A DNA stretch of 50,138 bases from a virus (Duplodnaviria; Heunggongvirae; Uroviricota; Caudoviricetes): the IMG/VR virus record IMGVR_UViG_2877948078_000005, positions 1-50,138 of that record. One strand, 5' to 3'. Each line of letters starts with the position of its first letter. Position 1 is the first letter of the stretch. Below are positions 42,001 through 45,000 of this stretch, piece by piece. Made by a program: the position numbers.

Positions 42001-45000
42001 TAGAGAATCTGCATTTCGCTGATTTCTCCCTTAAAAAAATTGGCCAGACGCTCTGCCAGATCGATAGATGGAATTTGTTCCAGTCTCTCAATACGACTCA
42101 GCGTCGCTGGATTAACCTGAACACCCGCAGCAACATGCTGCAAAGTAAATCCGTGCGACTTACGCACATTTCGTAATGGTGATTGCATATAACCTCCACA
42201 TATTGCGCGATAAGCATATTATTTCACGCAAATATTTTGCGCAAGTTGATTTGCTTAACGCGCAATAAAGAAATGTAATAAACGCATGAACATAGGAAAT
42301 CGAGTCAGACAACTTCGCCAGGCGAAGAACATGAAAATCGCCGATCTCGCTGAAGCAATAGGAGTGGATGCGGCGAATATCTCACGCCTGGAAACAGGTA
42401 AGCAGAAACAATTCACTGAACAAGCCCTGAGTAATATTGCCAGGAGCTTAGGTGTTGATATTGCAGATCTCTTTACCTCAGACTTCAAAAGTAATACTGT
42501 ATGTAAAAACAGTACTGGTGAGGATGTTGCGCAGGTGAAGGATGTATTCCGTATTGAAATGCTGGATGTCAGTGCCAGTGCGGGAAATGGCCTTATCCAG
42601 GGCGGTGATGTCATTGATGTGATTCATGCCATTGAATACATAACTGATAATGCTGTATCGATGTTTGGAGGACGACCAGCCAATCACATTAAAGTTATCA
42701 ACGTTCGTGGGGACAGTATGTGTCCAACCATTGAGCCAGGAGATCTCATCTTCGTTGATATCAGTATCAATCAGTTTGATGGGGATGGTATCTATGTGTT
42801 TGGTTTTGATGATAAAATTTATGTCAAACGACTGCAAATGATACCTGACAAACTACTGGTGATTTCTGATAACCAGATTTACCGTGAATGGGGAATTACC
42901 AGCGAAAACGAACACCGGTTTATGGTCTTTGGGAAGGTCTTAATCAGTCAGTCACAAACCCTTAAGCGACACAATTAACCCCGACCTCCTCATCAATTAG
43001 CCACCAGAAGGTGGCTTTTCATTACTCATCAAATTGCATATCTCGCAACAAAAATACTTGCATAATGCGCAACTTCATTTTATCTTTCTTTCCAGACCAA
43101 CAAACAAGGTACTAACAAAATTTGGTTGTAACACGGCGTATGGCACATGCGTCGTTAGCGGTCTGGGGACGTTAAAGGGGACAATCCACTCCTTGCTCGG
43201 GCAAACAAACCAGGTAGCCGGAATGTGCAAGTCAATGATGATGCTGATAAGACGCCTAACCAGCGTGGCGATTCGGTTTGACGCCTGGGAAGAGACCAGG
43301 GTGCAACGATGAGGGCATTTATGGAGCCGCGACAAAGTGTGGTGCCGTAACTGGCTAAGTGCTCTCAGCGTTGTGGTGAAGGCGCAGGCTGATGCGCGAA
43401 AGACATTGCAGCTATTGCGGAAAAGAGCTGTTCGGCGGGGCAATTAAACGCCCGTGAGAGTCTGAAATAACCGCAAGCCGGAGATCAGCACCTGTCACCA
43501 CAACAGCCACTGCTTTGGCGGTACCAGTTTGTACACTTGCTTCCGGCTGGTACCGCTCTTTTTACAAAACAGAGAAGAGCATCACCGGACGACGGGCTCA
43601 TAACCCAATCCATCCGGGCGGCTGCCACCGCAGGTGTTCTTCTCTGTTTTGTGGAGAAACCAACCGACCTTGCAGGGTCGATATGATGAGGAGCAGCAAA
43701 ATGGCTAGCGAACGCAGTACTGATGTGCAGGCATTTATCGGGGAGCTGGACGGCGGCGTATTTGAAACCAAAATCGGCGCAGTTCTCAGTGAAGTCGCTT
43801 CCGGTGTGATGAACACGAAAACCAAAGGTAAGGTCTCGCTCAACCTGGAAATCGAACCATTTGATGAGAACCGTGTGAAAATCAAACACAAACTCTCATA
43901 TGTTCGCCCGACTAACCGCGGGAAAATTTCCGAAGAAGACACCACCGAAACGCCGATGTATGTCAATCGCGGTGGTCGCCTGACTATTCTGCAGGAAGAC
44001 CAGGGACAATTACTGACTCTTGCCGGTGAACCTGACGGAAAACTCCGCGCAGCAGGTCATTAATATCGTTCTTAATTAACCGATTATTTATCTCATCACT
44101 GAATATCTTTATATAGTGAGGACTTATTATGTCTCAGAACTTAGACGCAACCGCAATTAATCAAATCCATGCCCTTATTTCTGCTCAGGGTGTTAATGAA
44201 ATTATCAGTAAGATTGGTGCCGATGCTGTGGCATTGCCTGAGAATTTCCGCATTCATGATCTGGAAAAATTTAATTTAAATCGCTTCCGTTTCCGTGGTG
44301 CGCTTTCCACTGCCAGCATCGATGACTTTACCCGTTATTCTAAAGATCTTGCAGATGAAGGCACCCGCTGCTTTATCGATGCCGATAATATGCGAGCAGT
44401 CAGTGTGCTTAACCTGGGTACTATTGATGAACCAGGTCACGCAGATAACACCGCCACTCTCAAACTGAAAAAGACAGCACCGTTCTCTGCCCTGTTGTCT
44501 GTTAACGGCGAGCGTAACTCCCAGAAGTCACTGGCAGAATGGATTGAAGACTGGGCCGACTACCTTGTGGGCTTTGATGCTAATGGTGACGCTATTCAGG
44601 CAACAAAAGCGGCTGCGGCGGTCCGTAAAATCACGATTGAAGCAAACCAGACCGCTGATTTTGAAGATAATGACTTCAGCGGCAAACGCTCCCTGATGGA
44701 GTCTGTCGAAGCGAAGACCAAAGATATTATGCCAGTGGCATTTGAATTTAAATGCGTTCCGTTTGAAGGTCTGAAAGAACGTCCATTTAAATTACGCCTC
44801 AGCATTATCACTGGCGATCGTCCTGTACTGGTTCTGCGCATTATTCAGCTGGAAGCAGTGCAGGAAGAAATGGCTAACGAATTTCGTGATCTGCTTGTTG
44901 AGAAATTCAAAGACAGCAAAGTAGAAACCTTTATTGGTACTTTCACCGCCTGATTTCATTACTGCAAATGCCCCTGCGGGGGCATTTATGGAAACGTAGT

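What the first reader, a model, noticed from the sequence alone, without database searches (positions are those of the whole stretch)
43022..43700. No N antiterminator gene; about 680-bp structured leader downstream of the PL-like region
Between the cI terminator and the first early-left gene there is no ORF of 60 aa or more resembling N (no arginine-rich motif protein). The region is GC-rich with long inverted repeats (e.g. acaaaacagagaagag ... ctcttctctgttttgt about 55 nt apart, 43561-43650) and a terminator-like hairpin at about 43518-43560. This suggests RNA-based (HK022 put-like) or otherwise N-independent early antitermination.
Basis: inference. Interest (0 to 1): 0.5.

Follow-up and report, generated by a model that had tools for sequence, protein, structure and literature searches.

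The report
Phage early leader encodes structured RNAs
The 680-base "empty" stretch after the phage repressor gene holds no N gene and no HK022-type put RNA; it is a cassette of conserved structured RNAs: an apparently undescribed pseudoknotted RNA found in about a third of complete E. coli genomes, the published small RNA sRNA-17, and a terminator that is used in lysogens.

Summary
Window 43022-43700 lies between a cI-type repressor and yfdP in an mEp460/SfV-like prophage.

The put-like reading does not hold. A covariance model built from putL sequences recovers HK022 putL (104.5 bits) and putR (49.2 bits) but finds nothing in this leader. A boxA-like string is not conserved in homologues.

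The leader is a mosaic of RNA modules:
- **Module A (43133-43369):** a conserved RNA of about 240 nt with seven helices, including a pseudoknot, well supported by compensatory changes. It is absent from Rfam and unannotated, and occurs in 1834 of 5426 complete E. coli genomes. It also occurs in P1 (between trnI and ban) and in phiV10-like phages, directly upstream of tRNA-Arg.
- **43370-43562:** the published 193-nt sRNA-17, a tRNA-like scaffold RNA related in frame to STnc100. It ends at the intrinsic terminator 43518-43563.
- **43564-43652:** a conserved three-way hairpin in the yfdP 5' UTR.

Published lysogen data show sRNA-17 expressed while yfdP is silent, so the terminator works there. 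How the early-left genes get past it after induction is unknown.

The parts
42999..43016 (+). Terminator of the cI-like repressor gene
   Evidence: 7-bp G+C-rich stem followed by TTTTC. SfII annotates the equivalent site as a terminator.
43034..43086 (+). OL/PL-like region: operator-like palindromes TTGCN7GCAA at 43034-43048 and 43058-43072; candidate promoter -35 TTGCAT 43058-43063, -10 TATCTT 43081-43086
   Evidence: The pattern occurs 8 times in the window against 1.4 expected, and 3 of the 8 lie in the immunity region. The promoter assignment is an inference; it fell below the consensus scan threshold.
43133..43369 (+). Module A: conserved pseudoknotted RNA domain. P1 43133-43142/43146-43155; P2 43162-43166/43210-43214; nearly invariant 19-mer 43213-43231; P4 43252-43255/43263-43266; pseudoknot 43258-43261/43275-43278; P6 43284-43288/43296-43300; P7 43308-43320/43357-43369, enclosing a hypervariable insert at 43321-43356
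   Evidence: On a MAFFT alignment of 34 distinct sequences, 95.7% of cells are paired against 29-49% when partners are slid. 13 pairs show compensatory change and 0 of 500 shuffles reach the observed values. For P7, 16 sequence variants each pair 11-14 bp with their own partner against 8.3 in cross-pairings. G-U pairs fit only the + strand. No Rfam hit.
43370..43562 (+). sRNA-17 (published 193-nt RNA): a tRNA-like scaffold plus terminator. Closing helix 43370-43379/43495-43504; 5' hairpin 43382-43385/43394-43397 (loop AGGCUGAU); 3' hairpin 43478-43481/43491-43494 (loop AGAUCAGCA); complementary loops 43388-43393 and 43484-43489
   Evidence: The primers, RACE primers and Northern probe of PMC7719688 map here and are antisense to the + strand. 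The family of 29 distinct frames with variable interiors is.
43518..43563 (+). Intrinsic terminator (10-bp stem, 19-nt loop, TCTTTTT)
   Evidence: A homologous large-loop terminator follows most of the cassettes examined, with covarying stems. The published 3' end of sRNA-17 maps to its U-tract. yfdP is silent in the lysogen.
43564..43652 (+).
   Evidence: RNAalifold on 14 sequences gives 38 pairs, 9 of them with compensatory changes.
43663..43703 (+). Small hairpin 43663-43682, Shine-Dalgarno GAGGAG 43688-43693 and the yfdP start codon 43701-43703
   Evidence: Read from the sequence. The hairpin was flagged by the terminator scan on the minus strand. yfdP matches phrog_204.

Best explanation
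The region is a composite non-coding RNA locus placed between the repressor-controlled early-left promoter and the first early-left gene. It is not an N- or put-type antitermination leader.

Proposed pathway:
1. Transcription starts at about 43094 (inferred).
2. It makes a precursor containing module A, a roughly 240-nt RNA of seven helices with a pseudoknot.
3. Module A is joined through its last helix, P7, to an exchangeable 'cargo' RNA. In this phage the cargo is the tRNA-like scaffold RNA sRNA-17. In related cassettes it is a genuine tRNA-Arg or an STnc100-like RNA.
4. The precursor is cut exactly at the junction between P7 and the cargo's closing helix (43369|43370). The enzyme is presumably a tRNA-processing or other host endonuclease (inferred).
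5. Transcription ends at the intrinsic terminator 43518-43563, giving the 193-nt sRNA-17.

In lysogens the cassette is expressed while the terminator insulates yfdP and the genes beyond it. After induction the early-left genes must be reached by read-through of this large-loop terminator. That could be simple leakiness at high promoter activity or an unidentified factor. This step is inferred and is the weakest part of the model.

What is shown: the module structures, their distribution, the identity with sRNA-17, and the absence of N, nut and put.

What is inferred: the transcription start, the processing enzyme, the function of module A, and the route of read-through.
For: - Mosaic homology. 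Module A occurs in lambdoid PL leaders (this window, mEp460, mEp390), in P1/P7/D6 between tRNA-Ile and ban, and in phiV10/SPN9TCW/Tyrion-type phages directly upstream of tRNA-Arg.
- Structure of module A. Searches support it. An independent anchor shows the 19-mer exact in 124 of 131 copies.
- Distribution. 22 Enterobacteriaceae species genomes (plus two likely spurious hits in Firmicutes-labelled bins), more than 120 IMG/VR contigs, and 1834 of 5426 complete E. coli genomes with no annotation under the match. No Rfam family matches.
- sRNA-17. The supplementary primers of PMC7719688 place the 193-nt RNA at 43370-43562 on the + strand. Their qRT-PCR amplicon (43120-43515) spans module A plus the sRNA, which implies co-transcription.
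- The mapped 5' end coincides with the P7 / closing-helix junction.
- In the tRNA-Arg cassettes the tRNA starts at the GTGG of the same conserved linker.
- The terminator is conserved in the cassettes.
- In the RS218 lysogen, yfdP has 0.49 reads and yfdR 0 reads while sRNA-17 is visible on a Northern blot.
- The put model is negative while its positive controls score.
- No N-like ORF was found.
Against: - No transcription start, processing enzyme or read-through measurement is available for this phage. The promoter match is weak.
- The qRT-PCR evidence for co-transcription comes from one paper and could include DNA carry-over.
- In that paper, deleting 43395-43512 raised yfdP about 96-fold even though the terminator stem was kept. 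A simple 'terminator only' insulator does not explain this. It may reflect the inserted resistance cassette or a role of the sRNA body in termination.
- The single-sequence fold of module A alone is not better than shuffles (z = -1.2), so its support is purely comparative.
- The function of module A is unknown.
Confidence: 0.7

Rival explanations
1. Module A is a cis-acting RNA antiterminator that works like HK022 put without being related to it, possibly conditionally. The nascent RNA would bind RNA polymerase, or switch between two folds, and carry it through the 43518-43563 terminator and later ones, replacing N.
For: - It sits promoter-proximally in two unrelated lambdoid leaders with no N gene annotated or found downstream of the repressor (this window; mEp390), and inside repressor-controlled operons in P1.
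- It has nearly invariant single-stranded stretches (19-mer).
- RNAalifold proposes an alternative long-range pairing, GGCACAU 43143-43149 with AUGUGC 43223-43228, that competes with hairpin P1.
- A terminator follows in most of the cassettes examined.
- In this lineage the 19-mer can pair 16 bp with the terminator loop and 3' arm.
Against: - No match to a put covariance model that does find putL and putR.
- Only one copy in the window, none on the PR side.
- The 19-mer/terminator complementarity is not conserved in other cassettes (z about 0 in 15 of 17).
- In P1 no terminator follows it.
- In phiV10-type phages it precedes a tRNA.
- In the RS218 lysogen, transcripts that include module A stop at the terminator and yfdP is silent.
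Confidence: 0.1
2. The published view: the 250 bp upstream of sRNA-17 (43120-43369) is simply its ArcA-regulated promoter DNA, and sRNA-17 is a primary transcript.
For: PMC7719688 reports that ArcA-P shifts this fragment in EMSA and that expression depends on oxygen.
Against: - The EMSA used 20-80 uM protein.
- The paper's own qRT-PCR forward primer lies at 43120, so the 'promoter' is itself transcribed.
- The fragment carries seven helices with compensatory changes and G-U pairs specific to the + strand, which a DNA promoter does not need.
- The same element sits inside the P1 ban operon and upstream of tRNA-Arg.
- No consensus promoter was found in 43100-43700.
Confidence: 0.07
3. The region hides a protein gene: a short N-like peptide on the + strand, or the antisense ORF 43485-43889 (134 aa), which matches phrog_3651.
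For: - A 36-aa ORF (43337-43447) ends in LLRKRAVRRGN.
- The minus-strand ORF hits phrog_3651 at E 7e-86.
- mEp460 annotates hypothetical proteins here.
Against: - The 36-aa ORF has a GTG start with a poorly spaced SD. It spans the hypervariable P7 insert and the cargo, which are replaced by unrelated sequence or a tRNA in homologues.
- The antisense ORF overlaps yfdP, the terminator and B2. Homologues carry 1-nt and 25-nt indels in B2.
- A PHROG family of unknown function built from conserved DNA is expected even for spurious ORF calls (inference).
- The 92-aa and 122-aa ORFs have no family hits.
Confidence: 0.04
4. Early-left expression depends on a protein antiterminator, or a terminator/Rho antagonist, encoded elsewhere in the phage and unrelated to N. 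The leader RNAs would then be only passengers (a moron).
For: - SfV-family leaders contain two or more terminators before yfdP and no N has been reported.
- The many unknown early ORFs include candidates.
Against: No candidate was identified. None of the scanned early ORFs has an antiterminator annotation. This is compatible with the best explanation rather than exclusive of it.
Confidence: 0.15

Closest known systems
sRNA-17 of E. coli K1 RS218 (Front Microbiol 2020, PMC7719688)
   Same: The same locus. The 193-nt RNA maps to window 43370-43562, on the same strand, in an mEp460-like prophage. The portion compared (43469-43562) is identical to the UTI89 reference except for T instead of G at 43493; the window also has G instead of the majority T at 43381.
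   Different: - The paper treats 43120-43369 as promoter DNA and the RNA as a stand-alone trans-acting sRNA.
- Here the upstream 240 nt is a conserved structured RNA that is co-transcribed.
- The sRNA is one of many interchangeable cargos.
- Its 3' hairpin is the terminator that gates the early-left operon.
STnc100 / PasD prophage sRNA family (Rfam RF02076; bioRxiv 10.64898/2026.05.13.724894)
   Same: - The same frame: a closing helix ..UGGUGAAU.. / ..CACCA.., a 5' hairpin, a 3' hairpin stacked on the closing helix, and a terminator.
- The RNA in the equivalent slot of phage SfV scores 39.5 bits (E 3e-7) full length against STnc100.
- A bona fide STnc100 lies elsewhere in this window, at 30572-30784.
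   Different: The window's sRNA-17 gives no STnc100 hit even at E up to 10. Its interior is unrelated.
HK022 putL/putR
   Same: Both are non-coding RNAs just downstream of PL in a lambdoid phage without N.
   Different: - No sequence or structure match.
- About 240 nt with a pseudoknot against about 70 nt with two stems.
- A single copy.
- Also found next to tRNAs in P1 and phiV10-like phages.
- The terminator downstream is effective in lysogens.
Lambda N / nut
   Same: Same position in the genome map (PL, then leader, then early-left genes).
   Different: No N-like protein. The boxA-like string is not conserved, and no boxB-type hairpin follows it.
tRNA-punctuated or RNase P-processed phage RNAs (P1/P7 C4 RNA), and large tRNA-adjacent prophage RNAs (GOLLD, ROOL). 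Comparison from my own knowledge.
   Same: Structured non-coding RNAs of temperate phages, placed next to tRNA or tRNA-like elements that could define their ends.
   Different: No sequence relation and no Rfam hit. Module A is smaller (about 240 nt), restricted so far to Enterobacteriaceae phages, and fused to its cargo by a covarying helix.

Membership tests
HK022 put RNA | Match to the put sequence/structure consensus (stem I, stem II, GGAUGA...CAAUG core) | tested here: not met
   Model R1, built from 8 putL-type sequences, scores putL 104.5 bits and the untrained putR 49.2 bits. With filters off and E up to 10, it has no hit in window 43022-43700 or in the mEp390, SfV and SfII leaders. blastn-short shares only a 9-mer.
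HK022 put RNA | Two copies, one downstream of PL and one downstream of PR | tested here: not met
   The conserved 19-mer occurs once in the window even with 3 mismatches allowed. Real put loci show paired divergent copies.
HK022 put RNA | Promotes terminator read-through in cis through the RNA polymerase beta' zinc-binding domain | not testable with these tools
   Indirect evidence only: in the RS218 lysogen the RNA ends at the terminator and yfdP is silent.
Lambda-type N/nut antitermination | Small arginine-rich N protein encoded just downstream of PL | tested here: not met
   ORF and R/K scan; Pfam and PHROG scans; the only R/K-rich ORF is not conserved.
Lambda-type N/nut antitermination | Conserved boxA followed by a boxB hairpin | tested here: not met
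   CGCTCTTTTTACAA at 43555-43568 resembles boxA, but homologues read CGCCCTTTTTACA, CGTCCTTTTTACA or CGTCACTTTTACA. It is the terminator U-tract.
sRNA-17 | Sequence identity with the RACE-mapped 193-nt RNA, and the same strand | tested here: met
   The full-length primers, RACE primers and Northern probe map to 43370-43562 and are antisense to the + strand. The supplementary alignment matches over the compared 43469-43562 except for one base, 43493.
STnc100 (RF02076) | Score at or above the Rfam gathering threshold (47 bits) | tested here: not met
   No hit at E up to 10 for window 42900-43800. The SfV slot RNA scores 39.5 bits, significant but below the threshold. The window's true STnc100 scores 158.7 bits at 30572-30784.
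tRNA | Cloverleaf recognised by ARAGORN or the Rfam tRNA model | tested here: not met
   No tRNA is called in 43000-43700. Homologous cassettes carry a real tRNA-Arg(UCU) in the same slot.
Intrinsic (Rho-independent) terminator | G+C-rich hairpin followed by a U-tract, with RNA 3' ends mapping there | tested here: met
   10-bp stem plus TCTTTTT; conserved with covarying stems; the published 3' end lies at 43562. The 19-nt loop is atypically long.
Any Rfam 15 family (for module A) | A covariance-model hit | tested here: not met
   No + strand hit over module A at E up to 10 in the window, nor at E up to 5 in five divergent homologues.

The most novel reading that the evidence does not exclude
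Module A is a new class of phage regulatory RNA. In this reading it is a constant pseudoknotted 'driver' domain fused by a covarying helix to exchangeable tRNA or tRNA-like cargos. It would conditionally switch fold (hairpin P1 against the long-range GGCACAU:AUGUGC pairing) to make RNA polymerase termination-resistant, or to gate maturation of the downstream RNA. That would supply the N-independent early antitermination of SfV/mEp460-type lambdoid phages.
Probability: 0.1. Interest if true: 0.85.

Novelty: new variant of a known kind. Interest (0 to 1): 0.55.

Why it matters
- **A widespread unannotated RNA.** A structured RNA of about 240 nt is present in a third of complete E. coli genomes, in the classic phage P1, and in lambdoid and epsilon15-like phages. 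It is unannotated and absent from Rfam, and the one paper touching it reads it as promoter DNA.
- **sRNA-17 is reframed.** It becomes one cargo of a modular cassette in which tRNA-Arg, STnc100-like and other scaffold RNAs are interchangeable. Virulence phenotypes of its deletion may partly be cis effects on yfdP and downstream phage genes.
- **An open question is sharpened.** How SfV/mEp460-type lambdoid phages express early-left genes without N, nut or put, across a terminator that demonstrably works in lysogens, can now be tested with defined constructs.

Tried and rejected
- **Rfam.** Searches of the window, of the leader at E up to 10, and of five divergent homologues returned nothing for module A, sRNA-17 or B2.
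- **put.** blastn-short gave only a shared 9-mer. The first put alignment, which included putR, was misaligned by MAFFT, so the model was rebuilt from putL types, with putR kept as an untrained positive control. The result was negative.
- **N-like peptides.** All ORFs of 12 aa or more were scanned for R/K density. The 36-aa candidate was rejected because it is not conserved.
- **boxA.** The boxA-like string was rejected on comparison with homologues.
- **Antiterminator pairing.** The idea that the invariant 19-mer pairs with the terminator holds for 16 bp here (z = -2.2) but is not conserved elsewhere.
- **A tRNA in the cargo slot.** ARAGORN found none.
- **A shared protein partner.** The gene after the phiV10 cassette is not a yfdP homologue (BLASTP E = 2.7; it is Phage_gp49_66).
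- **PasB.** PasB as the identity of this RNA was rejected, because PasB sits in a structural-gene operon.
- **P1 literature.** Nothing was found on the trnI-ban spacer.
- **RS218 genome.** It is not in the held collections, so the mapping was done through the paper's primers instead.
- **Single-sequence folding.** Module A alone is uninformative by this test (z = -1.2).
- **Not attempted.** A covariance model of module A and a metagenome scan.
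Full report
**Context and observation**

The window is an mEp460/SfV-type lambdoid prophage of E. coli. Around the finding lie:
- a Cro-like HTH gene, 41928-42188 (-);
- a CII-like gene, 41384-41935 (-);
- a cI-type repressor with HTH and S24 peptidase domains, 42286-42978 (+), with its terminator at 42999-43016;
- then, about 680 nt later, yfdP (ATG 43701), yfdQ (DUF2303), an HD-domain protein, a PAPS-reductase-like protein, an exonuclease and an excisionase.

Two operator-like palindromes, TTGCN7GCAA, lie at 43034-43048 and 43058-43072, and a third lies in the cro/cI intergenic region. The window has 8 such sites against 1.4 expected. So a PL-like region is plausible, although the promoter hexamers (TTGCAT, 17 nt, TATCTT) are a weak match (inference).

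- There is no N-like ORF.
- The inverted repeat has a 16-nt perfect core at 43564-43579 / 43637-43652.
- The hairpin 43518-43527 / 43547-43556 is followed by TCTTTTT.

G+C enrichment is modest (51-56%), with a positive GC skew.

**Tests of N, nut and put**

- No ORF in the leader or among the early-left genes scanned matches an antiterminator family.
- The one R/K-rich small ORF (36 aa, 43337-43447) crosses segments that are replaced by unrelated sequence, or by a tRNA, in homologues.
- The boxA-like CGCTCTTTTTACAA is the terminator U-tract and is not conserved.
- For put, I took putL and putR from HK022 and fished 72 put loci from IMG/VR. I then built a covariance model from 8 putL-type sequences, using the stems of the cryo-EM structure as I derived them from PMC9378689.
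- That model finds putL (104.5 bits) and the untrained putR (49.2 bits). It finds nothing in this leader, nor in the mEp390, SfV and SfII leaders, at E up to 10 with filters off.

The region is therefore not a member of the put family.

**What the leader is made of**

BLAST shows a mosaic.

Module A (43133-43369) recurs in three settings:
- other lambdoid PL leaders, including mEp390, which has a different repressor;
- P1, P7 and D6, directly after tRNA-Ile and before ban, inside the C1-controlled ban operon;
- phiV10, SPN9TCW, Tyrion and 65FD-type Uetakeviruses, in a divergent intergenic region. In the phiV10, SPN9TCW and Klebsiella ST512-phi13.3 types a tRNA-Arg(UCU) follows, and its first bases are the GTGG of a conserved linker..GCTCTCAGCGTTGTGG.

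Distribution of module A:
- It is present in 22 Enterobacteriaceae species genomes; two further hits, in Firmicutes-labelled bins, look spurious.
- It is present in 1834 of 5426 complete E. coli genomes, including 554 places on plasmids, with no RefSeq feature under the match.

Structural support for module A:
- On an unbiased MAFFT alignment of 34 distinct sequences, five helices including an H-type pseudoknot are 95.7% paired, against 29-49% when partners are slid.
- 13 pairs show compensatory changes, and 0 of 500 shuffles reach the observed values.
- The pseudoknot co-varies perfectly (AACC:GGUU against CACC:GGUG).
- A further helix, P7 (43308-43320 / 43357-43369), encloses a hypervariable insert. 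It exists in at least 16 sequence versions, each complementary to its own partner over 11-14 bp, against 8.3 in cross-pairings.
- G-U pairs fit only the + strand.
- A 19-mer (43213-43231) is exact in 124 of 131 copies retrieved with an independent anchor.
- RNAalifold also proposes an alternative long-range pairing of two invariant stretches. It competes with hairpin P1 and cannot be tested by covariation.
- No Rfam family matches, and I found no description in the literature.

**The cargo is a published sRNA**

A literature search on mEp460 led to PMC7719688, which describes sRNA-17 of E. coli K1 RS218: 193 nt, mapped by RACE and Northern blot, in an mEp460-like prophage, and 'not in Rfam'.

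The supplementary primer table and alignment place it at window 43370-43562:
- The Northern probe and the 5'-RACE primers are antisense to the + strand.
- Its 5' end is the first base of a 10-bp perfect closing helix (43370-43379 / 43495-43504) and the base immediately after P7.
- Its 3' end is the terminator U-tract.
- The paper's 'promoter fragment' (43120-43369) is module A.
- Its qRT-PCR amplicon (43120-43515) spans module A and the sRNA, so the two are co-transcribed.

The sRNA belongs to a larger family with a constant frame and an interior that varies from roughly 45 to 150 nt:
- a closing helix;
- a 5' hairpin with loop AGGCUGAU;
- a 3' hairpin with loop AGAUCAGCA, stacked on the closing helix.

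The two loops are complementary (GCUGAU / AUCAGC), which recalls a tRNA elbow (inference). In phage SfV the same slot holds an RNA that scores 39.5 bits (E 3e-7) against STnc100. The window's own copy gives no STnc100 hit.

**Terminator and B2**

A hairpin with a stem of about 8-12 bp, a loop of 12-20 nt and a U-tract follows most of the cassettes examined. Its stems covary.

It lies in the yfdP 5' UTR. Its role is unknown.

**How it most likely works**

Shown:
- The leader is a set of conserved structured RNAs.
- One of them accumulates in lysogens with ends at 43370 and 43562.
- In the RS218 lysogen yfdP has 0.49 reads and yfdR 0 reads.

The terminator is therefore used in vivo, and transcripts carrying module A do not constitutively read through it.

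Inferred:
- A precursor starts near 43094.
- It is cut at the P7 / closing-helix junction by a host endonuclease. RNase P is the obvious candidate, because a real tRNA occupies the same slot elsewhere.
- The cassette behaves as a lysogen-expressed RNA 'moron' and as an insulator.
- Early-left genes are reached after induction by leaky or factor-assisted read-through.

One result does not fit. Deleting 43395-43512 raised yfdP about 96-fold although the terminator stem was retained. This may be an effect of the resistance cassette, or it may mean the sRNA body contributes to termination.

**Rivals**

- A put-analogous, possibly conditional, antiterminator role for module A is not excluded but is disfavoured.
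- The published 'promoter DNA' reading conflicts with the RNA-level covariation and with the paper's own amplicon.
- Hidden coding capacity is unlikely.
- An unidentified phage factor remains possible.

**Novelty and limits**

sRNA-17 and the absence of N in this phage group are known. The following appear to be new:
- module A as a structured RNA;
- its covarying fusion (P7) to interchangeable tRNA or tRNA-like cargos;
- the recognition that the sRNA-17 terminator gates the early-left operon.

Limits:
- All functional statements about module A are inference.
- The alignments are dominated by closely related enterobacterial sequences.
- Parts of the scaffold-family retrieval were seeded on the frame itself, so conservation of the 5' frame and of the closing helix there is partly by construction.

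Noticed in passing
window 39994-41027 (- strand): Two tandem copies of a C4 antisense RNA (40840-40926, 39994-40081) each paired with an isrK RNA (40951-41027, 40106-40182). They lie inside two paralogous Rha/antirepressor-like ORFs (39379-40236 and 40233-41387). This looks like a duplicated P1/P7-type immI module in the PR operon of a lambdoid phage.
   Followed up: no
window 30572-30784 (-) and 32190-32441 (-): A full-length STnc100 sRNA (158.7 bits) lies about 1.4 kb downstream, on the same strand, of a tRNA-Met / tRNA-Arg(TCG) / tRNA-Arg(TCT) cluster. It has the same scaffold type as the leader's cargo slot but no module A upstream.
   Followed up: partly
window 43493 and 43381: The window's sRNA-17 copy differs from almost all other copies. 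The T at 43493 (G elsewhere) breaks the CCGG/CCGG 3' hairpin, and 43381 is G where most have T. This copy may be slightly degenerate.
   Followed up: partly
window 43213-43231 against 43537-43555: In this lineage the invariant 19-mer of module A can pair over 16 bp (4+7+5, with two 3-nt bulges) with the terminator loop and 3' arm. The duplex energy is -23.5 kcal/mol (z = -2.2 against shuffles). This is seen again only in L148 and not in the other 15 cassettes tested.
   Followed up: yes
L009, L029, L114 (IMG/VR contigs): These contigs carry tandem arrays. A scaffold sRNA unit is followed, about 110 nt later, by a P7-like helix (CAGGTAAGAGCATT...AATGCTCTTTCC) and a second, STnc100-like unit. 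This suggests the P7-plus-cargo joint can be repeated.
   Followed up: no
L129 (SPN9TCW) about 1620-1720, and L094: In some cassettes the hypervariable P7 insert contains T-arm-like hairpins (for example CTGGTTCAATTCCAG), that is, tRNA-like fragments inside module A.
   Followed up: no
window 43485-43889 (- strand): An antisense ORF (134 aa, GTG start) overlapping the terminator, B2 and yfdP matches PHROG 3651 (unknown function) at E 7e-86. It is probably a family built from spurious calls on conserved DNA, and mEp460 annotates only a 47-aa piece of it.
   Followed up: partly
PMC7719688 data, window 43395-43512: Deleting the body of sRNA-17 raised yfdP about 96-fold, and yfdR from 0 to 8.5 reads, in the lysogen. 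These are cis-linked genes directly downstream, but the paper lists them among putative trans targets.
   Followed up: partly
L128 (phage Tyrion) 2598-2662: An int-alpA RNA (RF02996, 44 bits, above the gathering score) lies downstream of the module A cassette in an Enterobacter Uetakevirus.
   Followed up: no
Terminator loops and P2 loops of module A in many loci: A recurrent YCCUUGA / CUUG motif occurs both in the variable P2 hairpin loop of module A and in the large loop of the cassette terminator (for example TTTCCCTTGAAGG and CCCTTGATGC). It might be a shared binding site or a partner of the invariant GCAAG.
   Followed up: no
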